Shown piece after piece: positions 4,405 through 64,000 of a stretch of 64,000 nucleotides of DNA. A program made the position numbers and the translations under genes. Source of the DNA: Trypanosoma brucei. Lineage: Eukaryota. The notes beneath the pieces are model-generated. The model worked only from the letters and a program-made list of their open reading frames with translations. It was not told where the DNA came from and did not search any database. Position 1 is the first letter of the stretch. Every line of letters begins with the position of its first letter. The DNA lies in NCBI GenBank assembly GCA_000002445.1, contig AE017150.2, forward strand, positions 896,001 through 960,000, written 5' to 3'.

Positions 4405-4414
4405 GGGGGGGGGG
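4405..4414 (+). repeat. G10 homopolymer
   Basis: aaaatggggggggggcggcc seen directly. Confidence 0.95.
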
Positions 4415-22184: not shown

Positions 22185-22360
22185 CGGAGCCCCTTACCGG
22201 TGCCATTGCGGAGACGAACAGCGATTAAATCGTTTTATTCTGCTTTGGTGCGCAATGGTTCTGCGGATGCGTACAATTGTGTACAAGACAGTGCTTGTTT
22301 GGCGGAATGGTGTGCGTTGAAACGTGTGATGGATGCATTCCAATTACCTAAACCCAGATT

Positions 22361-22409
22361 TCTTTTTTGTTATCTGCTTCTATTCTACCTTTGTTTCATT
22401 ACTTTGTAG
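22361..22409 (+). promoter_or_regulatory. polypyrimidine tract plus AG, a candidate trans-splice acceptor for the downstream gene
   Basis: tcttttttgttatctgcttctattctacctttgtttcattactttgtag sits ~30 nt upstream of the ATG at 22441. This is the typical trypanosomatid arrangement. Confidence 0.5.
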
Positions 22410-22440
22410 GCACTGTTGGTGCAAGACTATCCGTAAGCGG

Positions 22441-45299: not shown

Positions 45300-46560
45300 A
45301 ACACGGAGCTGTCCCGGTGCAGTGTGACGAATTGGAGGGGCCGTGCACCACCTGGGGTAGCTTTTCTCAGTGCCCCTCCCCCTAACTCCCATTAATACAC
45401 AGGCATATATTTTTTCCAAACATGAGCGAACGGTGCTTTCCACCACTGATTTTATGCAATAAACAAAAGCACATATATGCGTATACATATATAAACTCTT
45501 TTTAAATAACTGTCACGATTCATCTCTCCCCCCACTCCCTTGTTTTCCCCCTTCTGTTACCTATATCACATTCGATCCGCAACATGTTAAGGGCGAATGT
45601 AATCAAATAGCGATGGTACACTCGTCCCAGAGGAAAGCACAAAATGCCAGTCTTGTCGCTTTTATCCCTCTTCCCCCGCACCAGTTTTTTGCGTTGAATA
45701 AATAAATTATGGGGTGAACATCAACGGCCACTATGAGCGACTGTGGAGGTGGGAAGAATGGTGGAGGCACCTCTTGGCGGTGCAACATTAGCCACGACCG
45801 TTGGCGAATACATTGAAAACCATTTGAACAGGAAACAGAGGAGCAATCCCTGGAGTAAAAACCGCTTTGTTTCGTATTCTTTTTTAAAAGGAGTGAGTAA
45901 ACGTGTACGGCTGGAGGTGTGCCCCCACAGCAACGCACATTCTCGTAGGCAACGTACCGCTACAACTGCTCTAATGTTGGCCTGACGCCTACCGTGGAGC
46001 TGACGGAATCGGCCCAACGATACAAATATTGCTCTACACAACGTTGATAACAAATTGGTTGACACATACAATGAACGTGAAATAGCGTATCTTATCCCTG
46101 CACCCAAAATAAAAGGGAGTTAAGCACGAAAGAACGCTTTGCATTACCTCAACTTTTCACCGTATACACAAATAAGTATCACCAGAGGAAATATTACGAA
46201 TACCAACTACTACAACAGACAATCAAACAAAAAATTCAAAACACCACTAATGAAAAACACACAACCACCGCACCACATCAAAGAAAAAATAACAAAGGCT
46301 CAAACAGCTAATATAAAGAAACATCATAATTCATAAGACCTCCATCAAAGAAACCAGTAATAGCACAATAAACTACATCCCTTCTTACCTTCTCCATTAT
46401 GATAATAAATGTTTTGAGTACCTGTGTCTCACTAACCAATTTGTTGGGATATGTGATATGGCTGCTCTCTTCCATTATTATTTGTGTTATCCTTTTCATA
46501 TTTCTTGTTTATTATCCTCGAGTGTATGTGTGATTATTTGATATCTTGTGTAACTCCTTT

Positions 46561-46616
46561 TTCTATTGTCACTGTTGCATTTCCCCTTTACTGACACGCT
46601 CTTCCCTCTTTCCCGC
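46561..46616 (+). promoter_or_regulatory. polypyrimidine tract upstream of each array ORF, a candidate trans-splicing signal repeated in every unit
   Basis: ttccccttta(c)tgacacgctcttccctctttcccgc lies 45-60 nt upstream of each ATG (46660, 48594, 50522, 52441, 54366, 56306, 58246, 60186). Confidence 0.45.
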
Positions 46617-46659
46617 ATATGTGTGTATTTGATAAACTCATAAGGAAGCAACACTGACA

Positions 46660-47763
46660 ATGAGCATGGACACCCGTATGGTGAATTTTGGTTTTACGCG
46701 TGCTGCTCTCCTGTGCGGTCTTTTATTATTGCTAACTGCCGTGTGTCCGCTGCATGTGACTGCTGCTGATAATGGACGTGTGATCGTTAATGTTAAATCC
46801 TATTTTTCAATGGACAATTTTGCTTTTGCTCATCGAGGCAATTACTTCGTAAGCTACAAAAATGCTGCGGCATATTGTGGCGACAATGGTGCTGTGCTTC
46901 CTGCCGATCAAACGGAGGCGGCGCACCAAAGTTTGCAGAGCGCAATAAAGCGTGTAATTACGGGTTCGGATGCTTTCAGCTACCTTGGTGGAGATGCTGT
47001 GTACAGTAGTGGCGAAGCAATTGAAGCTGATAAGCGTTGTAAGCCTGGAGACGCGGCATCTTCCCGCTATTGTGTGTATCGTTGGAATAAGGGATTGTTT
47101 GCAAAGGCTTTGCCTGATGGTCAGGGGGTGGCGTTCTGGCGTGGTTCATATGTCAAATACGGTGGTGCGGCCTCAATGAATGGTTACCCATCCTTTTGGG
47201 GTAGTGAATATCCCAAGCGTGGTCAGTTGTATACCCTTTCATGGTATCATACAGGAGATGATGTGACTACCTGGTATGATGGAAAAGATATGTCAGGACG
47301 CATAAAGTGGGCGAGTGATAATCCCGATACAAAAACTGAAAACTACGTTATCTTATGTGAAGTCCACGATTCTATCAGCACGACGACAACCACAACAACT
47401 ACAACTACGACAACAACTACCACTACAACTACAGCTGCACCTGCCTCAGGCGAAGTACCGGAACCAACTGTGACAAAGGATGAAGAAGTTACTGTGACAA
47501 CTGTGTCATTGGAAGAGAGAAGTAATTGGCACATTATTCTCATAGCTCTAATTTCTGTTGTTTCCCTCATTGTGTTGCTACTTTTCCTTTTACGTTGGTT
47601 TTGTGATTATGATGTTAAAAAGGAGATCATTCCCATGACGCTGCGTGAAGTTGTTGGAGAGCCGTTGTTTGTCCTGGAGCCAACACCTTTTGTTCCCCCA
47701 GAGGGTTTTGCTGCTCCTCCCTTAGCCCTGCAATATTATAACCAAATGAGAACCAGTGAATAA
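46660..47763 (+). CDS. array copy 1: type I membrane protein with signal peptide, C-type-lectin-like domain, ~18-Thr stalk, TM helix and a 54-aa cytoplasmic tail
   Basis: MSMDTRMVNFGFTRAALLCGLLLLLTAVCPLHVTAAD (signal). CTLD-like blocks (A.YC..NGAVLPADQTEAAHQSL; AFSYLGGD; YCVYRWNKG; YPSFWGSEYP; YVILCEV; 4 Cys). Poly-Thr. TM segment WHIILIALISVVSLIVLLLFLL. Tail RWFCDYDVKKEIIPMTLREVVGEPLFVLEPTPFVPPEGFAAPPLALQYYNQMRTSE. Confidence 0.8.
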   Translation: MSMDTRMVNFGFTRAALLCGLLLLLTAVCPLHVTAADNGRVIVNVKSYFSMDNFAFAHRGNYFVSYKNAAAYCGDNGAVLPADQTEAAHQSLQSAIKRVITGSDAFSYLGGDAVYSSGEAIEADKRCKPGDAASSRYCVYRWNKGLFAKALPDGQGVAFWRGSYVKYGGAASMNGYPSFWGSEYPKRGQLYTLSWYHTGDDVTTWYDGKDMSGRIKWASDNPDTKTENYVILCEVHDSISTTTTTTTTTTTTTTTTTTAAPASGEVPEPTVTKDEEVTVTTVSLEERSNWHIILIALISVVSLIVLLLFLLRWFCDYDVKKEIIPMTLREVVGEPLFVLEPTPFVPPEGFAAPPLALQYYNQMRTSE

Positions 47764-48593
47764 TATTAGCGTCACATCGTGTATCACATGGGTGGTGGTT
47801 GAGTGATGTTTAGGATCAAGTGGGGTAATGAATACTGTACCGCTTTCATCCTACGTTACGGACCGTCACAATTTCTAGCTTCGTGTATTGTTTCACTTCC
47901 TATTATTACTTTCAGTAGTGCTCAATACTTCATTGTTTCATATAATTATTACTTTTATGTTCCTAATATTAACGGTCTCCTTGTACCATGTTGGCTCTGC
48001 GAGGGACTTCCGATGTGTGGCATCACTTCCCTCCGACCACATCATTGTTCTTTTAGTGTGTGACCCATTGAACCATCTTTACTGTTTGATGTCCCATTGT
48101 TTCGTTGTTGTTAGTGTTGATTATTTATTTCGTGTGTGGGTGTCATGTTTAGTTCGCGTTATTTCATGTTTTACTTCCATGTATATGTGGGAGGCTTGTA
48201 GGTCCTCCCTGTTACGTGTGATGTATTGCTATACGTGTAACTTGCAGCACTTAATTATTTTAAAAACCTGTACGACGCTGTGTTAAACGAGAGTTCCATA
48301 GTGTTCAATCCCTGCGTTATAGTTGGTCCATTATGATAATAAATGTTTTGAGTACCTGTGTCTCACTAACCAATTTGTTGGGATATGTGATATGGCTGCT
48401 CTCTTCCATTATTATTTGTGTTATCCTTTTCATATTTCTTGTTTATTATCCTCGAGTGTATGTGTGATTATTTGATATCTTGTGTAACTCCTTTTTCTAT
48501 TGTCACTGTTGCATTTCCCCTTTACTCACACGCTCTTCCCTCTTTCCCGCATATGTGTGTATTTGATAGACTCATAAGGAAGCAACACTGACA

Positions 48594-49691
48594 ATGAGCA
48601 TGGACACCCGTATGGTGAATTTTGGTTTTACGCGTGCTGCTCTCCTGTGCGGTCTTTTATTATTGCTAACTGCCGTGTGTCCGCTGCATGTGACTGCTGC
48701 TGATGGTGATAATGGACGTGTGATTGTTAATGTGAAGGAGTATTTCTCCATGCCTAATTATGCATTTATTCGAAGAAGAAAGTATATGGTTGATCACGAA
48801 AGCACCAATCGTTACTGCGTGTATTTTGGTGCCGAAGTTGCTGCCGATCAAACGGAGGCGGCACACCAAAGTTTGCAGGATGCTATGAAGCGTGTAATTA
48901 CGGGTTCGGATGCTTTCAGCTACCTTGGTGGAGATGCTGTGTACAGTAGTGGCGAAGCAATTGAAGCTGATAAGCGTTGTAAGCCTGGAGACGCGGCATC
49001 TTCCCGCTATTGTGTGTATCGTTGGAATAAGGGATTGTTTGCAAAGGCTTTGCCTGATGGTCACGGGGTGGCGTTCTGGCATGGTTCATATGTCAAATAC
49101 GACGGTGCGGCCTCAATGAATGGTTACCCATCCTTTTGGGGTAGTGAATATCCCAAGCGTGGTCAGTTGTATACCCTTTCATGGTATCATACAGGAGATA
49201 ATTCGACTACCTGGTATGATGCTGATGGGGTGTCAGGCACTATTCGTTGGACAAGTCGAAACTTTGACACGAAGTCTCAGGATTACGTTATTGTTTGTGA
49301 AGTTCAAAGATATGTTACTGTGGCAGCTGATAACTACACAACAACTACCACTACAACTACAGCTGCACCTGCCTCAGGCGAAGTACCGGAACCAACTGTA
49401 ACAAAGGATGAAGAAGTTACTGTGACAACTGTGTCATTGGAAGAGAGAAGTAATTGGCACATTATTCTCATAGCTCTAATTTCTGTTGTTTCCCTCATTG
49501 TGTTGCTGCTTTTCCTTTTACGTTGGTTCTGTGATTATGATGTTAAAAAGGAGATCATTCCCATGACGCTGCGTGAAGTTGTTGGAGAGCCGTTGTTTGT
49601 CCTGGAGCCAACACCTTTTGTTCCCCCAGAGGGTTTTGCTGCTCCTCCCTTAGCCCTGCAATATTATAACCAAATGAGAACCAGTGAATAA
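48594..49691 (+). CDS. array copy 2 (divergent patches 1 and 3; only 8 Thr in the stalk)
   Basis: Same conserved N- and C-termini. Its private patch 1 is KEYFSMPNYAFIRRRKYMVDHESTNRYCVYFGAEV. Patch 3 (GDNSTTWYDADGVSGTIRWTSRNFDTKSQDYV) is shared with copy 3. Confidence 0.8.
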   Translation: MSMDTRMVNFGFTRAALLCGLLLLLTAVCPLHVTAADGDNGRVIVNVKEYFSMPNYAFIRRRKYMVDHESTNRYCVYFGAEVAADQTEAAHQSLQDAMKRVITGSDAFSYLGGDAVYSSGEAIEADKRCKPGDAASSRYCVYRWNKGLFAKALPDGHGVAFWHGSYVKYDGAASMNGYPSFWGSEYPKRGQLYTLSWYHTGDNSTTWYDADGVSGTIRWTSRNFDTKSQDYVIVCEVQRYVTVAADNYTTTTTTTTAAPASGEVPEPTVTKDEEVTVTTVSLEERSNWHIILIALISVVSLIVLLLFLLRWFCDYDVKKEIIPMTLREVVGEPLFVLEPTPFVPPEGFAAPPLALQYYNQMRTSE

Positions 49692-50521
49692 TATTAGCGT
49701 CACATCGTGTATCACATGGGTGGTGGTTGAGTGATGTTTAGGATCAAGTGGAGTAATGAATACTGTACCGCTTTCATCCTACGTTACGGACCGTCACAAT
49801 TTCTAGCTTCGTGTATTGTTTCACTTCCTATTATTACTTTCAGTAGTGCTCAATACTTCATTGTTTCATATAATTATTACTTTTATGTTCCTAATATTAA
49901 CGGTCTCCTTGTACCATGTTGGCTCTGCGAGGGACTTCCGATGTGTGGCATCACTTCCCTCCGACCACATCATTGTTCTTTTAGTGTGTGACCCATTGAA
50001 CCATCTTTACTGTTTGATGTCCCATTGTTTCGTTGTTGTTAGTGTTGATTATTTATTTCGTGTGTGGGTGTCATGTTTAGTTCGCGTTATTTCATGTTTT
50101 ACTTCCATGTATATGTGGGAGGCTTGTAGGTCCTCCCTGTTACGTGTGATGTATTGCTATACGTGTAACTTGCAGCACTTAATTATTTTAATAGCTTATA
50201 TGAGGTTACATTAAACGAGAGTTCCATAGTGTTCGGTATCTGCGTTATAGTTCATCCATTATGATAATAAATGTTTTGAGTACCTGTGTCTCACTAACCA
50301 ATTTGTTGGGATATGTGATATGGCTGCTCTCTTCCATTATTATTTGTGTTATCCTTTTCATATTTCTTGTTTATTATCCTCGAGTGTATGTGTGATTATT
50401 TGATATCTTGTGTAACTCCTTTTTCTATTGTCACTGTTGCATTTCCCCTTTACTCACACGCTCTTCCCTCTTTCCCGCATATGTCTGTATTTGATAGACT
50501 CATAAGGAAGCAACACTGACA

Positions 50522-51610
50522 ATGAGCATGGACACCCGTATGGTGAATTTTGGTTTTACGCGTGCTGCTCTCCTGTGTGGTATTTTATTATTGCTAACTG
50601 CCGTGTGTCCGCTGCATGTGACTGCTGCTGATGGTGATGGACGCGTGATTGTTAATGTGAAGACGTATTTCTCTGTTCCCACATATGCGTTCATTAGGAA
50701 AGGTAGATATGCTGTTAATTACGAAAATGCTAATTATTATTGCGTCTTCTTTGGTGCTGTGCTTCCTGCCGATCAAACGGAGGCGGCGCACCAAAGTTTG
50801 CAGGATGCTATGAAGCGTGTAATTACGGGTTCGGATGCTTTCAGCTACCTTGGTGGAGATGCTGTGTACAGTAGTGGCGAAGCAATTGAAGCTGATAAGC
50901 GTTGTAAGCCTGGAGACATTGCATCTTCCCGCTATTGTGTGTATCGTTGGAATAAGGGATTGTTTGCAAAGGCTTTGCCTGATGGCTGGGGGGTGGCGTT
51001 CTGGCATGGTTCATATGTCAAATACGACGGTGCGGCCTCAATGAATGGTTACCCATCCTTTTGGGGTAGTGAATATCCCAAGCGTGGTCAGTTGTATACC
51101 CTTTCATGGTATCATACAGGAGATAATTCGACTACCTGGTATGATGCTGATGGGGTGTCAGGCACTATTCGTTGGACAAGTCGAAACTTTGACACGAAGT
51201 CTCAGGATTACGTAGTCACCTGTGAGGTTCAAACTGATATTATCACGACGACAACCACAACAACTACAACTACAACTACAGCTGCACCTGCCTCAGGCGA
51301 AGTACCGGAACCAACTGTGACAAAGGATGAAGAAGTTACCGTGACAACTGTGTCATTGGAAGAGAGAAGTAATTGGCACATTATTCTCATAGCTCTAATT
51401 TCTGTTGTTTCCCTTATTGTGTTGCTACTTTTCCTTTTACGTTGGTTCTGTGATTATGATGTTAAAAAGGAGATCATTCCCATGACGCTGCGTGAAGTTG
51501 TTGGAGAGCCGTTGTTTGTCCTGGAGCCAACACCTTTTGCTCCCCCAGAGGGTTTTGCTGCTCCTCCCTTAGCCCTGCAATATTATAACCAAATGAGAAC
51601 CAGTGAATAA
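50522..51610 (+). CDS. array copy 3
   Basis: Private patch 1 is KTYFSVPTYAFIRKGRYAVNYENANYYCVFFGAV. Patch 3 is shared with copy 2. The tail has a single V->A change (TPFAPPEG). Confidence 0.8.
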   Translation: MSMDTRMVNFGFTRAALLCGILLLLTAVCPLHVTAADGDGRVIVNVKTYFSVPTYAFIRKGRYAVNYENANYYCVFFGAVLPADQTEAAHQSLQDAMKRVITGSDAFSYLGGDAVYSSGEAIEADKRCKPGDIASSRYCVYRWNKGLFAKALPDGWGVAFWHGSYVKYDGAASMNGYPSFWGSEYPKRGQLYTLSWYHTGDNSTTWYDADGVSGTIRWTSRNFDTKSQDYVVTCEVQTDIITTTTTTTTTTTTAAPASGEVPEPTVTKDEEVTVTTVSLEERSNWHIILIALISVVSLIVLLLFLLRWFCDYDVKKEIIPMTLREVVGEPLFVLEPTPFAPPEGFAAPPLALQYYNQMRTSE

Positions 51611-52440: not shown

Positions 52441-53535
52441 ATGAGCATGGACACCCGTATGGTGAATTTTGGTTTTACGCGTGCTGCTCTCCTGTGCGGT
52501 ATTTTATTATTGCTAACTGCCGTGTGTTCGCTGCATGTGACTGCTGCTGCTGATGGTGATGATGGACGCGTGATTGTTAATGTTAAATCCTATTTTTCGA
52601 TGGTGTACCGTGCTTTTTTCCGCAATAAAACTTACTTCGTTAGTTATGAAAACGCTGAAGCATATTGTGTTGAAAACGGTGCTGTGCTTCCTGCCGATCA
52701 AACGGAGGCGGCGCACCAAAGTTTGCAGGATGCAATGAAGCGTGTATACTCCATTTTTGTTGCTTTCAGCTACCTTGGTGGAGATGCTGTGTACAGTAGT
52801 AGCGGAGTAATTGAGTTTAATAAACGATGTAATGCTGGAGACATTGCATCTTCCCGCTATTGTGTGTATCGTTGGAATAAGGGATTGTTTGCAAAGGTTT
52901 TGCCTGATGGTCACGGGGTGGCGTTCTGGCATGGTTCATATGTCAAATACGACGGTGCGGCCTCAATGAATGGTTACCCATCTTTTTGGGGTAGTGAATA
53001 TCCCAAGCGTGGTCAGTTGTATACCCTTTCATGGTACCATGAACACGAAGATGTGACTACCTGGTATGATGCTGAAAGTGTAGCTGGACAGCTGGTGGCA
53101 GCAAGCAACAATCCCGAGACCACAAACAAGAACTACGTTATCTTATGTGAAGTCCATGATTCTATCAGCACGACGACAACCACAACAACTACCACTACAA
53201 CTACAGCTGCACCTGCCTCAGGCGAAGTGCCGGAACCAACTGTGACAAAGGATGAAGAAGTTACTGTGACAACTGTGTCATTGGAAGAGAGAAGTAATTG
53301 GCACATTATTCTCATAGCTCTAATTTCTGTTGTTTCCCTCATTGTGTTGCTACTTTTCCTTTTACGTTGGTTTTGTGATTATGATGTTAAAAAGGAGATC
53401 ATTCCCATGACGCTGCGTGAAGTTGTTGGAGAGCCGTTGTTTGTCCTGGAGCCAACACCTTTTGTTCCCCCAGAGGGTTTTGATGCTCCTCCCTTAGCCC
53501 TGCAATATTATAACCAAATGAGAACCAGTGAATAA
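52441..53535 (+). CDS. array copy 4 (the most divergent ectodomain)
   Basis: Its patch 1 is unique (KSYFSMVYRAFFRNKTYFVSYENAEAYCVENGAV). Its patch 2 is unique (KRVYSIFVAFSY...SSGVIEFNKRCNAGD). Its patch 3 is unique (EHEDVTTWYDAESVAGQLVAASNNPETTNKNYV). Confidence 0.8.
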   Translation: MSMDTRMVNFGFTRAALLCGILLLLTAVCSLHVTAAADGDDGRVIVNVKSYFSMVYRAFFRNKTYFVSYENAEAYCVENGAVLPADQTEAAHQSLQDAMKRVYSIFVAFSYLGGDAVYSSSGVIEFNKRCNAGDIASSRYCVYRWNKGLFAKVLPDGHGVAFWHGSYVKYDGAASMNGYPSFWGSEYPKRGQLYTLSWYHEHEDVTTWYDAESVAGQLVAASNNPETTNKNYVILCEVHDSISTTTTTTTTTTTTAAPASGEVPEPTVTKDEEVTVTTVSLEERSNWHIILIALISVVSLIVLLLFLLRWFCDYDVKKEIIPMTLREVVGEPLFVLEPTPFVPPEGFDAPPLALQYYNQMRTSE

Positions 53536-54365: not shown

Positions 54366-55475
54366 ATGAGCATGGACACCCGTATGGTGAATTTTGGTTT
54401 TACGCGTGCTGCTCTCCTGTGCGGTATTTTATTATTGCTAACTGCCGTGTGTTCGCTGCATGTGACTGCTGCTGATGGTGATGATGGACGCGTGATTGTT
54501 AATGTGAAGGAGTATTTCTCCATGCCTAATCGTGCATTTATTCGTGATGGGGAGTACCATGTAAGTTACTACAATGCTAACGCATATTGTGTCGACAATG
54601 GTGCTGTGCTTCCTGCCGATCAAACGGAGGCGGCACACCAAAGTTTGCAGGATGCAATGAAGCGTGTAACTAATTCTTTTGTTGCTTTCAGCTACCTTGG
54701 TGGAGATGCTGTGTACAGTAGTGGCGGAGTAATTGAAGCTGATAAGCGTTGTAAGCCTGGAGACATTGCATCTTCACGCTATTGTGTGTACCGTTGGAAT
54801 AAGGGATTGTTTGCAAAGGCTTTGCCTGATGGCTGGGGGGTGGCGTTCTGGCATGGTTCATATGTCAAATACGGTGGTGCGGCCTCAATGAATGGTTACC
54901 CATCCTTTTGGGGTAGTGAATATCCCAAGCGTGGTCAGTTGTATACCCTTTCATGGTATCATAAAGATTATGATGTGACTACCTGGTATGATGGAAAAGA
55001 TATGTCAGGACGCATAAAGTGGACGAGTAAAAACACTGCTACAAGAACCGAAAACTACGTTATCTTATGTGAAGTCCACGATTCTATCAGCACGACGACA
55101 ACCACAACAACTACAACTACGACAACAACTACCACTACAACTACAGCTGCACCTGCCTCAGGCGAAGTGCCGGAACCAACTGTGACAAAGGATGAAGAAG
55201 TTACTGTGACAACTGTGTCATTGGAAGAGAGAAGTAATTGGCACATTATTCTCATAGCTCTAATTTCTGTTGTTTCCCTCATTGTGTTGCTGCTTTTCCT
55301 TTTACGTTGGTTTTGTGATTATGATGTTAAAAAGGAGATCATTCCCATGACGCTGCGTGAAGTTGTTGGAGAGCCGTTGTTTGTCCTGGAGCCAACACCT
55401 TTTGTTCCCCCAGAGGGTTTTGCTGCTCCTCCCTTAGCCCTGCAATATTATAACCAAATGAGAACCAGTGAATAA
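54366..55475 (+). CDS. array copy 5
   Basis: Patch 1 is KEYFSMPNRAFIRDGEYHVSYYNANAYCVDNGAV, shared with copies 6 and 8. Patch 2 is private (KRVTNSFVAFSY). Patch 3 is KDYDVTTWYDGKDMSGRIKWTSKNTATRTENYV. Confidence 0.8.
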   Translation: MSMDTRMVNFGFTRAALLCGILLLLTAVCSLHVTAADGDDGRVIVNVKEYFSMPNRAFIRDGEYHVSYYNANAYCVDNGAVLPADQTEAAHQSLQDAMKRVTNSFVAFSYLGGDAVYSSGGVIEADKRCKPGDIASSRYCVYRWNKGLFAKALPDGWGVAFWHGSYVKYGGAASMNGYPSFWGSEYPKRGQLYTLSWYHKDYDVTTWYDGKDMSGRIKWTSKNTATRTENYVILCEVHDSISTTTTTTTTTTTTTTTTTTAAPASGEVPEPTVTKDEEVTVTTVSLEERSNWHIILIALISVVSLIVLLLFLLRWFCDYDVKKEIIPMTLREVVGEPLFVLEPTPFVPPEGFAAPPLALQYYNQMRTSE

Positions 55476-56305: not shown

Positions 56306-57415
56306 ATGAGCATGGACACCCGTATGGTGAATTTTGGTTTTACGCGTGCTGCTCTCCTGTGCGGTATTTTATTATTGCTAACTGCCGTGTGTTCGCTGCA
56401 TGTGACTGCTGCTGATGGTGATGATGGACGCGTGATTGTTAATGTGAAGGAGTATTTCTCCATGCCTAATCGTGCATTTATTCGTGATGGGGAGTACCAT
56501 GTAAGTTACTACAATGCTAACGCATATTGTGTCGACAATGGTGCTGTGCTTCCTGCCGATCAAACGGAGGCGGCGCACCAAATTTTGCAGGATGCTATGA
56601 AGCGTGTAATTGCGGCTTCGGATGCTTTCAGCTACCTTGGTGGAGATGCTGTGTACAGTAGTGGCGGGGCCATTGTGGCTAATAAGCGTTGTAAGCCTGG
56701 AGACATTGCATCTTCACGCTATTGTGTGTATCGTTGGAATAAGGGATTGTTTGCAAAGGCTTTGCCTGATGGCTGGGGGGTGGCGTTCTGGCATGGTTCA
56801 TATGTCAAATACGGTGGTGCGGCCTCAATGAATGGTTACCCATCCTTTTGGGGTAGTGAATATCCCAAGCATGGTCAGTTGTATACCCTTTCATGGTATC
56901 ATAAAGATTATGATGTGACTACCTGGTATGATGGAAAAGATATGTCAGGACGCATAAAGGGGACGAGTAAAAACCCTGCCACAAAGACTGAAAACTACGT
57001 TATCTTATGTGAAGTCCACGATTCTATCAGCACGACGACAACCACAACAACTACAACTACGACAACAACTACCACTACAACTACAGCTGCACCTGCCTCA
57101 GGCGAAGTACCGGAACCAACTGTGACAAAGGATGAAGAAGTTACCGTGACAACTGTGTCATTGGAAGAGAGAAGTAATTGGCACATTATTCTCATAGCTC
57201 TAATTTCTGTTGTTTCCCTTATTGCGTTGCTACTTTTCCTTTTACGTTGGTTTTGTGATTATGATGTTAAAAAGGAGATCATTCCCATGACGCTGCGTGA
57301 AGTTGTTGGAGAGCCGTTGTTTGTCCTGGAGCCAACACCTTTTGTTCCCCCAGAGGGTTTTGCTGCTCCTCCCTTAGCCCTGCAATATTATAACCAAATG
57401 AGAACCAGTGAATAA
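56306..57415 (+). CDS. array copy 6
   Basis: Patch 1 is shared with copies 5 and 8. Patch 2 (ILQDAMKRVIAASDA...GGAIVANKRC) is shared with copy 7. Patch 3 (KGTSKNPATKTENYV) is shared with copy 7. Confidence 0.8.
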   Translation: MSMDTRMVNFGFTRAALLCGILLLLTAVCSLHVTAADGDDGRVIVNVKEYFSMPNRAFIRDGEYHVSYYNANAYCVDNGAVLPADQTEAAHQILQDAMKRVIAASDAFSYLGGDAVYSSGGAIVANKRCKPGDIASSRYCVYRWNKGLFAKALPDGWGVAFWHGSYVKYGGAASMNGYPSFWGSEYPKHGQLYTLSWYHKDYDVTTWYDGKDMSGRIKGTSKNPATKTENYVILCEVHDSISTTTTTTTTTTTTTTTTTTAAPASGEVPEPTVTKDEEVTVTTVSLEERSNWHIILIALISVVSLIALLLFLLRWFCDYDVKKEIIPMTLREVVGEPLFVLEPTPFVPPEGFAAPPLALQYYNQMRTSE

Positions 57416-58245: not shown

Positions 58246-59355
58246 ATGAGCATGGACACCCGTATGGTGAATTTTGGTTTTACGCGTGCTGCTCTCCTGT
58301 GCGGTCTTTTATTATTGCTAACTGCCGTGTGTCCGCTGCATGTGACTGCTGCTGATGGTGATGATGGACGCGTGATTGTAAATATCAATACTATAATTTC
58401 TATGGTCAATCGTGCATTTATTCGTGATGGGGAGTACCATGTAAGTTACTACAATGCTAACGCATATTGTGTCGACAATGGTGCTGTGCTTCCTGCCGAT
58501 CAAACGGAGGCGGCGCACCAAATTTTGCAGGATGCAATGAAGCGTGTAACTGCGGCTTCGGATGCTTTCAGCTACCTTGGTGGAGATGCTGTGTACAGTA
58601 GTGGCGGGGCCATTGTGGCTAATAAGCGTTGTAAGCCTGGAGACATTGCATCTTCACGCTATTGTGTGTACCGTTGGAATAAGGGATTGTTTGCAAAGGC
58701 TTTGCCTGATGGTCACGGGGTGGCGTTCTGGCATGGTTCATATGTCAAATACATTTTTGCAGGCCCAATGAATGGTTACCCATCCTTTTGGGGTGGCGAA
58801 CATCCCAAGCGTGGTCAGTTGTATACCCTTTCATGGTATCATAAAGATTATGATGTGACTACCTGGTATGATGGAAAAGATATGTCAGGACGCATAAAGG
58901 GGACGAGTAAAAACCCTGCCACAAAGACTGAAAACTACGTTATCTTATGTGAAGTCCACGATTCTATCAGCACGACGACAACCACAACAACTACAACTAC
59001 GACAACAACTACCACTACAACTACAGCTGCACCTGCCTCAGGCGAAGTACCGGAACCAACTGTGACAAAGGATGAAGAAGTTACTGTGACAACTGTGTCA
59101 TTGGAAGAGAGAAGTAATTGGCACATTATTCTCATAGCTCTAATTTCTGTTGTTTCCCTTATTGTGTTGCTACTTTTCCTTTTACGTTGGTTCTGTGATT
59201 ATGATGTTAAAAAGGAGATCATTCCCATGACGCTGCGTGAAGTTGTTGGAGAGCCGTTGTTTGTCCTGGAGCCAACACCTTTTGTTCCCCCAGAGGGTTT
59301 TGCTGCTCCTCCCTTAGCCCTGCAATATTATAACCAAATGAGAACCAGTGAATAA
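58246..59355 (+). CDS. array copy 7 (carries private substitution clusters)
   Basis: Private NINTIISMVN at the start of the ectodomain. Private KYIFAGPMNG and WGGEHP in the otherwise invariant core. Patches 2 and 3 are shared with copy 6. Confidence 0.8.
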   Translation: MSMDTRMVNFGFTRAALLCGLLLLLTAVCPLHVTAADGDDGRVIVNINTIISMVNRAFIRDGEYHVSYYNANAYCVDNGAVLPADQTEAAHQILQDAMKRVTAASDAFSYLGGDAVYSSGGAIVANKRCKPGDIASSRYCVYRWNKGLFAKALPDGHGVAFWHGSYVKYIFAGPMNGYPSFWGGEHPKRGQLYTLSWYHKDYDVTTWYDGKDMSGRIKGTSKNPATKTENYVILCEVHDSISTTTTTTTTTTTTTTTTTTAAPASGEVPEPTVTKDEEVTVTTVSLEERSNWHIILIALISVVSLIVLLLFLLRWFCDYDVKKEIIPMTLREVVGEPLFVLEPTPFVPPEGFAAPPLALQYYNQMRTSE

Positions 59356-60185
59356 TATTAGCGTCACATCGTGTATCACATGGGTGGTGGTTGAGTGATG
59401 TTTAGGATCAAGTGGAGTAATGAATACTGTACCGCTTTCATCCTACGTTACGGACCGTCACAATTTCTAGCTTCGTGTATTGTTTCACTTCCTATTATTA
59501 CTTTCAGTAGTGCTCAATACTTCATTGTTTCATATAATTATTACTTTTATGTTCCTAATATTAACGGTCTCCTTGTACCATGTTGGCTCTGCGAGGGACT
59601 TCCGATGTGTGGCATCACTTCCCTCCGACCACATCATTGTTCTTTTAGTGTGTGACCCATTGAACCATCTTTACTGTTTGATGTCCCATTGTTTCGTTGT
59701 TGTTAGTGTTGATTATTTATTTCGTGTGTGGGTGTCATGTTTAGTTCGCGTTATTTCATGTTTTACTTCCATGTATATGTGGGAGGCTTGTAGGTCCTCC
59801 CTGTTACGTGTGATGTATTGCTATACGTGTAACTTGCAGCACTTAATTATTTTAATAGCTTATATGAGGTTACATTAAACGAGAGTTCCATAGTGTTCAA
59901 TCCCTGCGTTATAGTTCATCCATTATGATAATAAATGTTTTGAGTACCTGTGTCTCACTAACCAATTTGTTGGGATATGTGATATGGCTGCTCTCTTCCA
60001 TTATTATTTGTGTTATCCTTTTCATATTTCTTGTTTATTATCCTCGAGTGTATGTGTGATTATTTGATATCTTGTGTAACTCCTTTTTCTATTGTCACTG
60101 TTGCATTTCCCCTTTACTCACACGCTCTTCCCTCTTTCCCGCATATGTGTGTATTTGATAGACTCATAAGGAAACAACACTGACA

Positions 60186-61295
60186 ATGAGCATGGACACC
60201 CGTATGGTGAATTTTGGTTTTACGCGTGCTGCTCTCCTGTGCGGTATTTTATTATTGCTAACTGCCGTGTGTCCGCTGCATGTGACTGCTGCTGATGGTG
60301 ATGATGGACGCGTGATTGTTAATGTGAAGGAGTATTTCTCCATGCCTAATCGTGCATTTATTCGTGATGGGGAGTACCATGTAAGTTACTACAATGCTAA
60401 CGCATATTGTGTCGACAATGGTGCTGTGCTTCCTGCCGATCAAACGGAGGCGGCGCACCAAAGTTTGCAGAGCGCAATAAAGCGTGTAATTACGGGTTCG
60501 GATGCTTTCAGCTACCTTGGTGGAGATGCTGTGTACAGTAGTGGCGGAGTAATTGAAGCTGATAAGCGTTGTAAGCCTGGAGACGCGGCATCTTCCCGCT
60601 ATTGTGTGTATCGTTGGAATAAGGGATTGTTTGCAAAGGCTTTGCCTGATGGCTGGGGGGTGGCGTTCTGGCGTGGTTCATATGTCAAATACGGTGGTGC
60701 GGCCTCAATGAATGGTTACCCATCCTTTTGGGGTAGTGAATATCCCAAGCGTGGTCAGTTGTATACCCTTTCATGGTATCATAAAGATTATGATGTGACT
60801 ACCTGGTATGATGGAAAAGATATGTCGGGACGCATAAAGTGGGCGAGTGATAATCCCGATACAAAAACTGAAAACTACGTTATCTTATGTGAAGTCCACG
60901 ATTCTATCAGCACGACGACAACCACAACAACTACAACTACGACAACAACTACAACTACAACTACAGCTGCACCTGCCTCAGGCGAAGTACCGGAACCAAC
61001 TGTGACAAAGGATGAAGAAGTTACTGTGACAACTGTGTCATTGGAAGAGAGAAGTAATTGGCACATTATTCTCATAGCTCTAATTTCTGTTGTTTCCCTT
61101 ATTGTGTTGCTACTTTTCCTTTTACGTTGGTTCTGTGATTATGATGTTAAAAAGGAGATCATTCCCATGACGCTGCGTGAAGTTGTTGGAGAGCCGTTGT
61201 TTGTCCTGGAGCCAACACCTTTTGTTCCCCCAGAGGGTTTTGCTGCTCCTCCCTTAGCCCTGCAATATTATAACCAAATGAGAACCAGTGAATAA
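60186..61295 (+). CDS. array copy 8 (a mosaic of copy 5/6-type patch 1 with copy 1-type patches 2 and 3)
   Basis: Patch 1 equals copies 5/6. SLQSAIKRVITGSDA, AFWRGSYVKYGG and KWASDNPDTKTENYV equal copy 1. Confidence 0.8.
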   Translation: MSMDTRMVNFGFTRAALLCGILLLLTAVCPLHVTAADGDDGRVIVNVKEYFSMPNRAFIRDGEYHVSYYNANAYCVDNGAVLPADQTEAAHQSLQSAIKRVITGSDAFSYLGGDAVYSSGGVIEADKRCKPGDAASSRYCVYRWNKGLFAKALPDGWGVAFWRGSYVKYGGAASMNGYPSFWGSEYPKRGQLYTLSWYHKDYDVTTWYDGKDMSGRIKWASDNPDTKTENYVILCEVHDSISTTTTTTTTTTTTTTTTTTAAPASGEVPEPTVTKDEEVTVTTVSLEERSNWHIILIALISVVSLIVLLLFLLRWFCDYDVKKEIIPMTLREVVGEPLFVLEPTPFVPPEGFAAPPLALQYYNQMRTSE

Positions 61296-64000
61296 TATTA
61301 GCGTCACATCGTATATCACATGGGTGGTGGTTGAGTGATGTTTAGGATCAAGTGGAGTAATGAATACTGTACCGCTTTCATCCTACGTTACGGACCGTCA
61401 CAATTTCTAGCTTCGTGTATTGTTTCACTTCCTATTATTACTTTCAGTAGTGCTCAATACTTCATTGTTTCATATAATTATTACTTTTATGTTCCTAATA
61501 TTAACGGTCTCCTTGTACCATGTTGGCTCTGCGAGGGACTTCCGATGTGTGGCATCACTTCCCTCCGACCACATCATTGTTCTTTTAGTGTGTGACCCAT
61601 TGAACCATCTTTACTGTTTGATGTCCCATTGTTTCGTTGTTGTTAGTGTTGATTATTTATTTCGTGTGTGGGTGTCATGTTTAGTTCGCGTTATTTCATG
61701 TTTTACTTCCATGTATATGTGGGAGGCTTGTAGGTCCTCCCTGTTACGTGTGATGTATTGCTTACGTGTAACTTGCAGCACTTAATTATTTTAATAGCTT
61801 ATATGAGGCTGTATTAAATAAGAGTTCCATAGTGTTCGGTGTTTGCGGTTTAGTTTGTTCACTATGATAATAAATGTTGTGTGTGCCTTTGTCTCACTAA
61901 CCAATTTGTTGGGATATGTGATATGGCTGCTCTCTTCCATCCTTGTTTGTTGTGCTGTGCTCCCTGTTTTTTTTGATCTCTGTTTTTTTTTTTCATATTT
62001 TAAAATATTGGTTTATATATATTCTATCTAAGTATATTTGTTGAGCTTTCTCTGGTTTTCTCTTTTTTTTTTTAGTGAAGGTTACTGATTAATTTGTCTT
62101 TTATCATGTCCATAGAGGATGCCGTTGTCGGTGTGCATGCACTGTCCTTGGTGTGATGCATGTTTTTGTAACTGCTAACACTTTTAGGTTGTCGTTTTGT
62201 TTTGCGTGTGTTGTCTTTATGGGATAATACATTGCTTCATCTACAGTTGTTTGTGGCTATATTCAAGAGCGTAGAGCAATGATAATGTTACAAATTCCGC
62301 GCGGAGACACGGGTCTAAAAAGCATCTGTAAAATGTCACAACAAGGAATCGGCTGCAATGCGCGGTGGCCCATAAAACCATGTGAAGACGTGTGTGTGAA
62401 TGTGTGCAGGAAAGAGAGTGCACATGCCTCGGGATCATGCATGCTGGCACCTTTTAATTCCGTGAAAACAGCAAGAAGATAAAGCAAAACGAAAGATCTG
62501 AGGCCGCCGGATTTAACACTTCGGTCATGTGAGGAAGCAGAGAGGCACAAAAAGGGCATCGGGGGATTCACAAAAGGGACCACCAAAGTTGCAGGTCATC
62601 TCATCCATTTGTCCCAAAATGTCCCCGCCACGGGGAGCGATGCGAGACAAAGATCTGCTTTACCTGCATATTTCGCCTACGTTTTGCAATTGTGTTGTCG
62701 CTCAGCGGCTGACCTAACGATAAAAGCGCATCAATGGGAAAGGAAAGGAGCATGGAAAGCGCTCCTAAAAGAAAGCAAGGCACAGATAGCGTACAGAGGG
62801 AACAACAGCTGCCACATATATATGGTAAATTGTTTGAACAAAGGCAATCACTATGGGAACGCATGCCACAACATGTCTTGGGTAACCTCTCAGGCGATCC
62901 TTTAGAAGCAAAAGGGAGACCTGTCTGAAGAAACGTTGGAGAGCAAAGAAAGGAAAAAGATTAAATTGACCCTTTCGTCCACTGAGTGTGCCGACTGGGT
63001 GAACGGTTGAGGAAACGCAACGAGACACGGGTCGCTCAAACCGGGGCAGGCAGAAAATTTCCCCGAAAACCCAAGGGACAAATCACCAGGAAAATAAGGC
63101 AGGGAGGTGGAATGTCATATGTGCCCGAGGAAGTTGCAGAGAAAGGGGGAATTGGCAGGCTACAAGTGCAACAAACCGAATCACCCTGTCAAAAACCGAT
63201 GACATGGTCATGCGAACAAGTTGAAACCAAAGTTCCCCATTCACCGCAACACCAGTGCCCAATAATCACTGCGTGGAGAGAAAATGAAGTGAAAATTTGA
63301 TTCCTATTTTGTAAGTGGCTGGCACGTTTCTCATGCATGCTCTTCAAGACGGAAGGCTCTGAACTGAACACAGAAGTGCAGCATCCTTATTTTACTAAAA
63401 GCACGAACCCAAGCAGGAGTGGGCGGGGATCTGCGTCAGCTGAAACTGTTATACCAAGAATCGCAATCAAATCAGACGTTGCTGCACTGCTATTGATAGT
63501 GGGAACGGGTCAAATAGCGTAGTGGGTGCAGCGGCAACGCACAAGAAACATGAAGCGAAAAGGGGGATTAGGGAAATGTTGGACGAGGCCCAACTGGGGA
63601 ACGTGCAGGTTAAAAGCACAGTGAAGCTAGGAAAGGGGGGAAAATAGACTGCCTACCGGAACCGGGATAAACAAACAAAGGGGAGGAGTGCATGTTATAG
63701 TTAACTCCTTTACCACGAGTGAAATGAAAGCCCCTTTCGCATTGAAGAGAAGCGTATGGTTTCCAGACATTGCAGATAAACAGTTGGAAGAAGCTTAGCA
63801 CAAATTCGAGGAGCGAGTGGAGGAGGTTGGAGCTTTCCCTCGTTACGTATTCGAAGAAGGTCCTTACTTTAAACGTAAGGCGGAGGTTACTTTTGCGCTG
63901 GAAAATATCGAAACCCGTGAACAGCGCCGTTTGTATGTCAAGGTTTTTACGAGACGGCAAATGAAATGAAAGTTTCGCATTACACTGCTTCGTAAAGAAT

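What the first reader, a model, noticed from the sequence alone, without database searches (positions are those of the whole stretch)
46394..61960. Eight-copy tandem array encoding a lectin-like ectodomain / poly-Thr stalk / TM / cytoplasmic-tail protein family not assignable to a known trypanosome surface family
Eight ~1.93-kb head-to-tail units each carry a ~365-aa ORF with a cleavable-looking signal peptide. The ~190-aa ectodomain has a block pattern and 4-Cys spacing that fits a C-type-lectin-like fold: A.YC..NGA.LP...E....SL, AFSYLGGD (the WIGL position), YCVYRWNKG, YPSFWGSEYP (the EPN/WND loop position) and YVILCEV (the C-terminal FxCE position). A run of 8 to ~18 Thr follows (a mucin-like O-glycosylation stalk), then one TM helix and a 54-aa cytosolic tail. 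The classic T. cruzi surface families (TS, mucins, MASP, GP63, DGF-1, amastin, TASV) do not have this lectin + mucin-stalk + TM + sorting-tail architecture. The architecture is instead reminiscent of selectin/CD23-type receptors and of apicomplexan mucin-like C-type-lectin adhesins. It looks like a candidate glycan-binding receptor/adhesin system.
Basis: partly seen in the sequence, partly recalled or inferred. Interest (0 to 1): 0.92.

Follow-up and report, generated by a model that had tools for sequence, protein, structure and literature searches.

The report
Trypanosoma brucei IGP40 gene array
The eight-copy repeat is real, but it is the already described IGP40 "invariant glycoprotein" gene array on Trypanosoma brucei chromosome 2: its lectin-like fold is confirmed, it is not a new family, and published tagging places the protein in the ER rather than on the cell surface.

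Summary
Eight head-to-tail units of 1919-1940 bp span window 46390-61950, and each carries a 362-369 aa ORF with a signal peptide, an ectodomain of about 205 aa, a run of 8-18 Thr, one TM helix and a 54-aa tail.

The family is not unassigned, and the organism is T. brucei, not T. cruzi:
- Pfam PF16825 "IGP family C-type lectin domain" matches end to end at E = 4.5e-80.
- ORF2 is identical to a TREU927 chromosome 2 protein.
- ORF1 matches Tb927.2.5290 in the supplement of Allison et al. 2014, who named this subfamily IGP40.

What is already published:
- IGP40 localises to the ER in bloodstream forms, and retention needs the lumenal domain.
- Knockdown of the subfamily slows growth.
- The array's mosaic variation and copy number were described in 2007 and 2010.
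- The poly-Thr tract and up-regulation in salivary-gland epimastigotes were described in 2021.

The canonical Ca2+/sugar-binding motifs (EPN/QPD, WND) are absent, so glycan binding is unproven. Verdict: already known, low interest. The ligand and the protein's location in insect stages remain open.

The parts
46390..61950 (+). Whole tandem array: eight units of 1919-1940 bp, each a 1.1-kb CDS plus about 0.83 kb of intergenic DNA. This is the T. brucei chromosome 2 IGP40 array, Tb927.2.5290-5360.
   Evidence: Self-BLAST shows 93-100% identity between units. The array is collinear with the T. b. equiperdum locus L001.
46660..47763 (+). IGP40 copy 1 (367 aa, 18 Thr). Its N-terminus matches the Tb927.2.5290 row of the published alignment.
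48594..49691 (+). IGP40 copy 2 (365 aa, 8 Thr). It is identical to TREU927 XP_951702.1 / AAX80008.1.
50522..51610 (+). IGP40 copy 3 (362 aa, 12 Thr).
52441..53535 (+). IGP40 copy 4 (364 aa, 12 Thr). It is the most divergent copy in the core segment (nt 251-420 of the unit).
54366..55475 (+). IGP40 copy 5 (369 aa, 18 Thr).
56306..57415 (+). IGP40 copy 6 (369 aa, 18 Thr). This is the representative copy used for the Pfam, homology and structure work.
58246..59355 (+). IGP40 copy 7 (369 aa, 18 Thr).
60186..61295 (+). IGP40 copy 8 (369 aa, 18 Thr). It is a mosaic: the N patch is identical to copies 5 and 6, while the core and C patch are closest to copy 1.
56306..56413 (+). Copy 6: signal peptide region (about aa 1-36, hydrophobic core LLCGILLLLTAVC).
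   Evidence: Kyte-Doolittle 19-mer maximum of 2.36. The paper reports a predicted signal peptide in all 20 IGPs. The cleavage site itself is inferred.
56408..57031 (+). Copy 6: folded lumenal/ecto domain (aa 35-242) with a C-type-lectin-like fold. The Pfam PF16825 match covers aa 64-236 (56495-57013).
56423..56552 (+). Copy 6: N-terminal variable patch (about aa 40-82), covering the first strands and helix alpha1. The equivalent position applies in every unit. Coordinates are approximate.
   Evidence: Pi of 0.22-0.32 against about 0.01 in the flanks. dS 0.85, dN 0.24, dN/dS 0.29.
56903..57042 (+). Copy 6: C-terminal variable patch (about aa 200-245), covering the W-Y-D strand, the following loop and the last strand. 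Coordinates are approximate.
   Evidence: Pi of about 0.25. dS 0.62, dN 0.23, dN/dS 0.37.
57032..57085 (+). Copy 6: poly-Thr tract (aa 243-260, 18 Thr, mixed ACN codons). It is followed by a Thr/Pro/Glu-rich linker that runs to aa 291.
   Evidence: Tandem Repeats Finder and the codon list. Tract length varies between copies: 8, 12 or 18.
57179..57244 (+). Copy 6: transmembrane helix (about aa 292-313).
   Evidence: Kyte-Doolittle 19-mer maximum of 3.28-3.41.
57251..57412 (+). Copy 6: 54-aa cytoplasmic tail. It carries the conserved P-M-T-L-R-E motif and a C-terminal YNQM (YxxPhi-like) motif, and has no KKxx ER-retrieval signal.

Best explanation
Identity (very secure): this is the Trypanosoma brucei chromosome 2 tandem array of eight IGP40 genes (Tb927.2.5290-5360). 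IGP40 is a subfamily of the kinetoplastid-restricted 'invariant glycoprotein' (IGP) family, Pfam PF16825.

Protein: each gene encodes a type I membrane protein. It has a cleavable signal peptide, a divergent C-type-lectin-like domain of about 205 aa, a poly-Thr/Thr-Pro-Glu linker, one TM helix and a short conserved tail.

How it most likely works:
- Shown in the literature for bloodstream forms: the protein resides mainly in the ER. Its lumenal domain is what retains it there, because replacing that domain releases the TM and tail to endosomes and the cell surface. Knockdown of the subfamily slows growth.
- Inferred, about 0.45: the CTLD module self-associates and/or binds a specific protein or glycoprotein partner in the early secretory pathway. 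This would be an ERGIC-53-like cargo or conditioning role, as Allison et al. proposed.
- Inferred from the sequence: any binding does not use the classical Ca2+-dependent sugar site, since the EPN/QPD and WND motifs are missing.

The array: transcription is polycistronic, so the array gives gene dosage. Gene conversion keeps the signal peptide, stalk, TM, tail and intergenic DNA nearly identical. Two old, divergent patches at the N- and C-terminal ends of the lectin domain are kept as distinct isoform cassettes and shuffled into mosaics.
For: Identity:
- PF16825 matches at E = 4.5e-80 over profile positions 1-173 of 173.
- The best homologues are all T. brucei, T. congolense and T. vivax proteins carrying PF16825.
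- ORF2 is an exact match to TREU927 XP_951702.1 on the 1,193,948-bp contig.
- ORF1 matches the Tb927.2.5290 row of the IGP alignment in the paper's supplement.
- The ten-member family is listed as Tb927.2.4760.4920 and .5290-.5360, and the paper counts ten IGP40 genes.
- Predicted mass is 40.2-41.0 kDa and pairwise identity is 82-96%, against the paper's 85-100%.
- The array sits in a housekeeping, same-strand gene run.

Fold:
- AlphaFold2 pLDDT 92.8.
- All top 50 Foldseek hits are CTLDs.
- The family profile hits the DEC-205 and SP-A CTLDs by sequence.

Function (all from PMC4497807):
- ER co-localisation with BiP.
- No surface signal, while the BiPN-IGP40 chimera reaches the surface and endosomes.
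- RNAi growth defect.
- The authors' ERGIC-53 analogy.

Array dynamics:
- Diversity profile, dN/dS by region and segment-wise mosaicism.
- These agree with Jackson 2007 and 2010: array 12, PHI p < 0.001, 8 copies in T. b. brucei against 24 in T. b. gambiense.
Against: - The ER localisation rests on one C-terminally HA-tagged, ectopically expressed copy (Tb927.2.5330) in bloodstream forms only.
- Transcripts peak in salivary-gland epimastigotes, where no localisation has been reported.
- No ligand, cargo or oligomer has been shown for IGP40 itself; oligomerisation was shown only for IGP48.
- Long-maintained isoform diversity in two patches (dS 0.6-0.85) is not an obvious expectation for an ER housekeeping factor.
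- A conserved cytoplasmic PMxLRE motif and a YxxPhi-like motif hint at post-ER trafficking information that the published chimeras did not reveal.
- The 81.7% minimum identity is slightly below the paper's quoted 85% lower bound.
Confidence: 0.85

Rival explanations
1. Same genes, different function. IGP40 proteins are stage-specific, mucin-like surface adhesins of salivary-gland epimastigotes. The O-glycosylated poly-Thr stalk holds the lectin-like head away from the membrane, where it mediates attachment to tsetse epithelium or parasite-parasite (gamete) contact. The ER location in bloodstream forms would then be a stage-specific or tagging effect.
For: - Transcripts are 4-10 fold higher in salivary-gland parasites than in bloodstream forms.
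- They are 2-3.7 fold up relative to the proventriculus and are found mainly in BARP-positive epimastigotes.
- NetOGlyc predicts O-glycosylation of the Thr run, and the authors themselves propose adhesion or gamete fusion.
- Thr-rich stalks are conserved in T. congolense and T. vivax homologues.
- Old, maintained isoform patches and copy-number expansion to 24 in T. b. gambiense are typical of host-interface families.
- The TM and tail alone can reach the surface.
Against: - There is no protein-level or localisation data for insect stages.
- Full-length IGP40-HA was not detected at the surface, and it migrates at about its predicted mass in bloodstream forms, so there is no heavy O-glycosylation in that stage.
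- dN/dS in the variable patches is 0.29-0.37, which means purifying selection rather than diversifying selection.
- IGP48 stays in the ER in stumpy forms as well.
Confidence: 0.3
2. The ectodomain is a genuine Ca2+-dependent carbohydrate-recognition domain, a classical C-type lectin that binds host or parasite glycans.
For: - There is weak sequence similarity to PF00059 (E = 0.18; the paper quotes 1.24e-4).
- Invariant E-Y-P-like and W-Y-D strings lie roughly where EPN and WND would be (positional inference).
Against: - There is no EPN, QPD or WND motif.
- PF00059 scores below its gathering threshold (13 against 22.6 bits).
- The profile-profile alignment to a canonical CTLD covers only the beta1-alpha1-alpha2 region (42 columns).
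- The second Cys pair is not at the canonical beta3 / beta4-beta5-loop positions.
- Many CTLDs with this fold bind proteins rather than sugars (established knowledge of the CTLD superfamily).
- IGP48 knockdown gave no detectable change in glycans.
Confidence: 0.1
3. One reading: a previously unassigned lectin-mucin surface receptor family of T. cruzi-type trypanosomes, i.e. a new family.
For: The architecture as described is accurate. A 2021 paper also called it a 'novel family', without noticing the earlier IGP work.
Against: - A dedicated Pfam family exists and matches at E = 4.5e-80.
- The family was named and characterised in 2014.
- The organism is T. brucei.
- The array was catalogued in 2007 and 2010.
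Confidence: 0.01
4. The array is an assembly artefact, or the copies are decaying pseudogenes.
For: Highly similar tandem repeats are prone to misassembly. Only one of the eight window proteins is found verbatim in the protein collection.
Against: - All eight ORFs are intact, with conserved Cys residues and motifs.
- Variation is structured and under purifying selection.
- An independent T. b. equiperdum assembly has a collinear array.
- Individual genes have published transcript data.
Confidence: 0.01

Closest known systems
IGP40 subfamily of the T. brucei invariant glycoproteins (Tb927.2.5290-5360, plus Tb927.2.4760 and .4920); Allison et al. 2014, PMC4497807
   Same: These are the same genes. 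ORF2 is an exact protein match, ORF1 matches the published alignment, the core polypeptide is about 40 kDa, and PF16825, the type I topology, the tandem array and the housekeeping locus all agree.
   Different: Nothing of substance differs. Two minor points: five of the eight copies have no N-glycosylation sequon, although the family is defined as glycoproteins with at least one site, and the minimum pairwise identity of 81.7% is slightly below the quoted 85%.
IGP48 and IGP34 subfamilies (for example Tb09.v4.0147 = P0019-like; the chromosome 6 paralogue P0014, presumably IGP34 like Tb927.6.380)
   Same: The same PF16825 lectin-like domain with the same four invariant Cys, the same type I topology, and ER localisation shown for IGP48.
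   Different: The lectin domains are about 37-40% identical to IGP40; the paper quotes 25-30% for the full-length proteins. IGP48 has a DENTTV-repeat 'trimerisation' stalk carrying about 15 N-glycan sites, where IGP40 has a poly-Thr tract. Oligomerisation, immune recognition and the ER-morphology phenotype were shown only for IGP48.
Canonical animal C-type lectin-like domains (tetranectin 1htn, collectins CL-K1/SP-D/SP-A/MBP, dectin-2, CD93)
   Different: - The domain is about 205 aa against 115-130 aa, so roughly 90 residues are extra.
- There is no EPN/QPD or WND motif.
- The second disulphide pair (C129/C140) is in a non-canonical position.
- PF00059 scores below its threshold.
- Sequence similarity is limited to the N-terminal third.
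- The family is restricted to kinetoplastids, with 37 representatives among 1.84 billion proteins.
ERGIC-53/LMAN1 cargo receptor (the functional analogy proposed by Allison et al.)
   Same: [quoted passage not shown] It lives in the early secretory pathway, oligomerises (shown for IGP48) and gives subtle, cargo-specific phenotypes.
   Different: There is no sequence relationship. To my knowledge ERGIC-53 has an L-type (legume-like) lectin domain rather than a C-type one, and no such Pfam hit was found here. ERGIC-53 uses a C-terminal KKFF signal, whereas the IGP40 tail ends in QMRTSE with no KKxx and retention maps to the lumenal domain.
ISG65/ISG75 invariant surface glycoproteins of T. brucei
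   Same: Similar size, type I topology, tandem arrays in housekeeping regions, and mosaic variation. ISG65 is the neighbouring entry in Jackson's array tables.
   Different: There is no homology; the paper recovers them as separate clades. ISGs are on the surface and in endosomes, while IGP40 is in the ER in bloodstream forms.
Selectins, CD23 and apicomplexan lectin-mucin adhesins
   Different: Selectins have EGF and SCR domains and a functional Ca2+/EPN site. CD23 is a type II protein with a coiled-coil stalk. Neither is an ER resident, and no relationship beyond the shared superfold was found.

Membership tests
IGP family (Pfam PF16825 / DUF5075) | The PF16825 HMM scores above its gathering threshold across the full domain. 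| tested here: met
   267.8 bits against a 22.6-bit cut-off, E = 4.5e-80, profile positions 1-173 of 173, aa 64-236. A second copy scores 263.6 bits.
IGP family (Pfam PF16825 / DUF5075) | Type I topology: an N-terminal signal peptide plus a single TM helix and a short cytoplasmic tail. | tested here: met
   There are two hydrophobic segments only, at about aa 7-38 and about aa 292-313, followed by a 54-aa tail. This rests on hydropathy alone, because SignalP and TMHMM were not available.
IGP family (Pfam PF16825 / DUF5075) | Restricted to kinetoplastids, with lineage-specific tandem expansions. | tested here: met
   Only 37 representatives reach E <= 1e-3 among 1.84 billion proteins. All named homologues are Trypanosoma. 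There is an eight-copy array here and a collinear, shorter array in T. b. equiperdum.
IGP family (Pfam PF16825 / DUF5075) | [quoted passage not shown] | tested here: not met
   Copies 1, 5, 6, 7 and 8 have no N-x-S/T sequon. Copies 2, 3 and 4 have one or two. This is a descriptive criterion rather than one of homology, so it does not affect membership, but 'glycoprotein' status for most copies would depend on O-glycosylation.
IGP family (Pfam PF16825 / DUF5075) | Expression from a housekeeping (non-telomeric) polycistronic region. | tested here: met
   The array follows a same-strand run of SNARE, RPAP3-like, DnaJ, aldo-keto reductase, kinase, Prp19, TTL, dynein heavy chain and trans-sialidase-like genes.
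IGP family (Pfam PF16825 / DUF5075) | ER localisation, with retention through the lumenal domain. | not testable with these tools
   Literature only: IGP40-HA (Tb927.2.5330) co-localises with BiP, and BiPN-IGP40 escapes to the surface and endosomes.
IGP40 subfamily | Sequence identity with the named genes Tb927.2.5290-5360. | tested here: met
   ORF2 is an exact match to TREU927 XP_951702.1. The N-terminal 120 aa of ORF1 match the Tb927.2.5290 row in the supplement. Eight consecutive gene IDs correspond to the eight ORFs.
IGP40 subfamily | A core polypeptide of about 40 kDa, and 85-100% identity within the subfamily. | tested here: met
   40.2-41.0 kDa. Pairwise identity is 81.7-96.2% with a mean of 88.5%, so the minimum is marginally under 85%.
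Classical C-type lectin CRD (Pfam PF00059, Ca2+-dependent sugar binding) | The CTLD fold. | tested here: met
Classical C-type lectin CRD (Pfam PF00059, Ca2+-dependent sugar binding) | PF00059 scores above its gathering threshold. | tested here: not met
   13.0 bits against a 22.6-bit cut-off, E = 0.18, covering aa 66-106 only.
Classical C-type lectin CRD (Pfam PF00059, Ca2+-dependent sugar binding) | EPN or QPD plus WND motifs that form Ca2+ site 2 and the sugar-binding site. | tested here: not met
   None of these motifs occurs anywhere in the protein. The positional counterparts appear to be E-Y-P and W-Y-D, an inference.
Classical C-type lectin CRD (Pfam PF00059, Ca2+-dependent sugar binding) | Two canonical disulphides: alpha1 to beta5, and beta3 to the beta4-beta5 loop. 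| tested here: inconclusive
   C75 lies in helix alpha1 and C235 in the last strand, which fits the first pair. C129 and C140 lie before the YRWN strand, not at the canonical second-pair positions.
Mucin-type O-glycosylated stalk proteins | A Thr/Ser/Pro-rich tract that actually carries O-glycans. | not testable with these tools
   The tract is present: 8-18 Thr plus a TAAPASGEVPEPTVT linker. NetOGlyc prediction was reported in PMC8483307. However, IGP40-HA migrates near its predicted mass in bloodstream forms, which argues against heavy modification in that stage.
ERGIC-53-type cargo receptors | An L-type lectin domain and a C-terminal di-lysine/KKFF signal. | tested here: not met
   There is no L-type lectin Pfam hit, and the tail ends in QMRTSE with no KKxx or KxKxx. 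The resemblance is an analogy of architecture and behaviour only.

The most novel reading that the evidence does not exclude
The ER picture may be incomplete. In salivary-gland epimastigotes the IGP40 isoforms might be released to the cell surface as O-glycosylated, lectin-fold adhesins. Their two anciently diverged and recombining patches would then give different binding specificities, for attachment to tsetse epithelium or for parasite-parasite or gamete recognition. That would reconcile the 2014 'ER protein' and 2021 'novel polythreonine membrane protein' papers, which do not cite each other's view, and it would make this the first CTLD-based adhesion system described in a kinetoplastid.
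Probability: 0.2. Interest if true: 0.55.

Novelty: already known. Interest (0 to 1): 0.12.

Why it matters
As a discovery it matters little. The family has been named since 2014, has its own Pfam entry, has been localised and knocked down, and its array dynamics and poly-Thr tract are published.

What this analysis adds is modest:
- A high-confidence structural confirmation that the PF16825 domain is a true, enlarged CTLD fold lacking the classical Ca2+/sugar site.
- A quantified picture of two old divergence islands (dS 0.6-0.85) inside an otherwise homogenised array.
- The observation that the 2021 tsetse-stage paper re-described these genes as a 'novel family' without linking them to IGP40.

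The real open questions can only be answered experimentally: what the domain binds, whether the Thr tract is glycosylated, and where the protein sits in epimastigotes.

Tried and rejected
- **First structure prediction.** The 20-sequence alignment (A3) gave only pLDDT 57, with the conserved middle unmodelled. Foldseek on that model returned only CTLDs but none significant (best E = 0.06). I replaced it with a 40-sequence alignment that includes distant representatives.
- **Word-indexed homologue searches.** The exhaustive representative search was what gave the needed diversity.
- **Profile-profile alignment to a canonical CTLD.** Using a repeat of P0042, only 42 columns aligned (beta1-alpha1-alpha2) at 34% probability. 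The mapping of EPN/WND equivalents therefore stays a positional inference.
- **3D mapping.** Model coordinates are not exposed to the scripting sandbox, so I could not measure disulphide distances or map the variable patches in 3D.
- **Source record.** The look-up of encoding contigs had no record for the TREU927 protein. I used the T. b. equiperdum locus instead.
- **Diversifying selection on the variable patches.** Considered and rejected: dN/dS is 0.29-0.37 with very high dS, which indicates old alleles protected from homogenisation.
- **RNA genes.** Rfam and tRNA scans of the window found nothing.
- **T. cruzi surface families (TS, mucin, MASP and others).** These are irrelevant, because the organism is T. 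brucei. The weak PF01456 Mucin hit (20.2 bits against a 34.7-bit cut-off) is caused by the Thr tract.

Full report
**1.

- A self-BLAST of one unit against the window finds eight full-length head-to-tail copies at 93-100% identity. Homology starts at 46390, 270 bp upstream of the first ATG, and ends at 61950.
- Start codons are at 46660, 48594, 50522, 52441, 54366, 56306, 58246 and 60186, spaced 1919-1940 bp apart. Each unit holds one + strand ORF of 362-369 aa.
- Hydropathy shows an N-terminal signal-like core and one strong TM segment at about aa 292-313. The 54-aa tail follows.
- The Thr run is 8, 12, 12 or 18 residues, encoded by mixed ACN codons.

**2. It belongs to a known family, in a different organism from the one assumed**

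- Pfam-A gives PF16825 (DUF5075, 'IGP family C-type lectin domain') at E = 4.5e-80. The match covers the profile end to end (1-173 of 173) at aa 64-236. PF00059 Lectin_C reaches only 13 bits against a 22.6-bit cut-off.
- The closest proteins in a 5.8-billion-sequence collection are from T. brucei equiperdum (95%) and T. b. brucei TREU927, then T. congolense and T. vivax ('IGP family C type lectin domain'), all carrying PF16825.
- ORF2 (48594-49691) is letter-for-letter identical to TREU927 XP_951702.1 / AAX80008.1, on the 1,193,948-bp chromosome 2 record.
- Allison, O'Reilly, Sternberg and Field (Microb Cell 2014, PMC4497807) defined the 'invariant glycoprotein' family: IGP34 with 2 genes, IGP40 with 10 and IGP48 with 8. 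Pfam created PF16825 for it.
- The supplementary alignment row for Tb927.2.5290 matches window ORF1. Another paper lists the ten members as Tb927.2.4760.4920 and .5290-.5360. The last range is eight consecutive genes, matching the eight ORFs here.
- Predicted masses are 40.2-41.0 kDa and pairwise identities are 82-96%, which fits 'IGP40'.
- The array lies at the end of a long same-strand run of housekeeping genes (SNARE, RPAP3-like, DnaJ, aldo-keto reductase, kinase, Prp19, TTL, a 4246-aa dynein heavy chain), followed by a trans-sialidase-like gene. That matches the paper's description of IGPs as expressed from housekeeping regions.
- A T. b. equiperdum assembly has a collinear locus with a shorter array.

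**3. The lectin-fold guess was right**

- A first AlphaFold2 run with 20 sequences was poor (pLDDT 57).
- After an exhaustive HMMER search of 1.84 billion cluster representatives (only 37 hits at E <= 1e-3), a 40-sequence alignment gave pLDDT 92.8 and pTM 0.90.
- By sequence, the family profile touches the DEC-205 and SP-A CTLDs, but only over the N-terminal 50 residues or so.
- The domain is enlarged: about 205 aa, of which about 115 superpose.
- C75 sits in helix alpha1 and C235 in the last strand, which is the canonical outer disulphide position. YLGGD occupies the WIGL strand.
- C129 and C140 are not at the canonical inner-pair positions.
- EPN/QPD and WND are absent. The apparent positional counterparts are E-Y-P and W-Y-D, which is an inference.
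- 'CTLD fold' is therefore established at the level of prediction. 'Lectin', meaning sugar binding, is not.

**4. What is already published about function**

- C-terminally HA-tagged IGP40 (Tb927.2.5330) co-localises with BiP in bloodstream forms and migrates near its predicted mass.
- No IGP40 is seen on non-permeabilised cells. Replacing the lumenal domain with BiPN lets the TM and tail reach endosomes, the lysosome and the surface.
- RNAi against the subfamily slows growth. The mRNA rises in stumpy forms.
- The authors propose ER retention by oligomerisation (shown for IGP48) and an ERGIC-53-like role.
- Separately, transcripts are 4-10 fold higher in salivary-gland parasites than in bloodstream forms.
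[quoted passage not shown] It reported expression mainly in BARP-positive epimastigotes and suggested adhesion or gamete fusion. That paper contains none of the words IGP, 'invariant glycoprotein' or lectin.

**5. Array dynamics**

- Nucleotide diversity among the eight units is close to zero in the signal peptide, stalk, TM, tail and most intergenic DNA.
- It reaches 0.22-0.32 in two patches of the lectin domain, CDS nt 121-250 and 601-740.
- Nei-Gojobori estimates give dS 0.85 and dN 0.24 in the N patch, and dS 0.62 and dN 0.23 in the C patch. The stalk, TM and tail give dS 0.07.
- These patches are old sequence islands under purifying selection (dN/dS 0.29-0.37) that have escaped homogenisation. 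They are not sites of recent positive selection.
- Segment-wise distances show mosaics. Copy 8 has the N patch of copies 5 and 6 (0 differences) but the core of copy 1 (2 differences, against 17-18 to copies 5 and 6). Copies 2 and 3 share a C patch but differ in the N patch.
- This reproduces what Jackson reported for 'array 12, Tb927.2.5290': Ds 0.156 and Dn 0.078, PHI p < 0.001, multiple breakpoints, 8 copies in T. b. brucei and 24 in T. b. gambiense.

**6. Mechanism, with what is shown and what is inferred**

- Shown here: identity, topology, CTLD fold, absence of canonical sugar-site motifs, and a gene-converted array with protected cassettes.
- Shown in the literature: ER residence in bloodstream forms, retention that depends on the lumenal domain, a growth phenotype, and stage-regulated mRNA.
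- Inferred: the CTLD module self-associates and/or binds a specific partner in the early secretory pathway without the classical Ca2+ site. The array supplies both dosage and a small panel of isoforms.
- The main live rival, at about 0.3, is that in epimastigotes the proteins act at the surface as mucin-like adhesins.

**7. Verdict**

Novelty is 'already known' and interest is low. The residual value lies in the unresolved ligand, the location in insect stages, and the disconnect between two published descriptions of the same genes.

Noticed in passing
window 46660-61295 (all eight CDS); copy 6 patches at about 56423-56552 and 56903-57042: Inside an array otherwise homogenised to almost 100% identity, two islands at the two ends of the lectin domain keep very old divergence (dS 0.62-0.85, dN/dS about 0.3). 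They are shuffled into mosaics; copy 8 combines the copy 5/6 N patch with the copy 1 core. Recombination in this array was reported in 2010, but I did not see the island pattern or its structural placement described.
   Followed up: yes
window copies 1, 5, 6, 7 and 8 (46660-47763, 54366-55475, 56306-57415, 58246-59355, 60186-61295): These five copies have no N-x-S/T sequon at all. [quoted passage not shown] By gene order, the copy used for localisation (Tb927.2.5330) would be copy 5, one of the copies without a sequon.
   Followed up: partly
cytoplasmic tail, e.g. copy 6 at about 57281-57298 (aa 326-331, PMTLRE): A juxtamembrane P-M-x-L-R-E motif is conserved from T. brucei to T. congolense, T. 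vivax and more distant family members (P0027, P0031). The published chimeras found no role for the cytoplasmic domain. The tail also has a YNQM (YxxPhi-like) motif near the C-terminus.
   Followed up: partly
literature (PMC4497807 versus PMC8483307): The 2021 tsetse-stage transcriptome paper presents Tb927.2.5290-5360 as a 'novel family' of polythreonine membrane proteins. It contains none of the words IGP, 'invariant glycoprotein' or lectin, so the 2014 ER-localisation work and the 2021 adhesin hypothesis have not been confronted with each other.
   Followed up: yes
intergenic DNA, unit nt about 1601-1700 (e.g. window 48260-48359, 57906-58005); array 5' edge at 46390: There is a short intergenic spot with two or three distinct haplotypes: units 1 and 3, units 2 and 4-7, and unit 8. 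The surrounding intergenic DNA is otherwise identical. The spot overlaps the unit coordinate (about 1670) at which array homology begins upstream of copy 1.
   Followed up: no
window 43077-45299 (+); the likely true start is the ATG at about 43191: A trans-sialidase-like gene (BNR_3 plus TS_C domains, with a hydrophobic C-terminus) lies immediately upstream of the array. It is syntenic in T. b. equiperdum (L001 783-2891).
   Followed up: partly
window about 3030-9660: This is an ORF-poor interval between a minus-strand ORF (1388-3028) and the long plus-strand gene run. GC skew changes sign near 4 kb, which fits a divergent strand-switch region. Overlapping frameshifted ORFs at 5455-7382 include a sub-threshold CCHC zinc knuckle (5868-6440, 19.1 bits against a 20.8-bit cut-off), possibly a retroelement remnant.
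   Followed up: partly
window 61951-64000; L001 15569-17893: The sequence downstream of the array has no ORF longer than 116 aa. It is 96.6% identical to the T. b. equiperdum locus, where it leads into an RHS (retrotransposon hot spot, PF07999) fragment and then a minus-strand ABC transporter. The array therefore seems to sit near the end of its transcription unit.
   Followed up: partly
window 1388-3028 (-), 10513-11778, 19057-21198, 22333-23496 (+): Four sizeable ORFs (387-713 aa) have no Pfam match at E <= 0.1.
   Followed up: no
P0042 (1190-aa protein from the representative library, source unknown): This was the only non-IGP protein picked up by the IGP profile (E = 6e-6). It has six canonical CTLD repeats separated by Thr/Pro-rich linkers, plus a TM helix, so it is an independent example of CTLD heads on Thr-rich spacers.
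   Followed up: no
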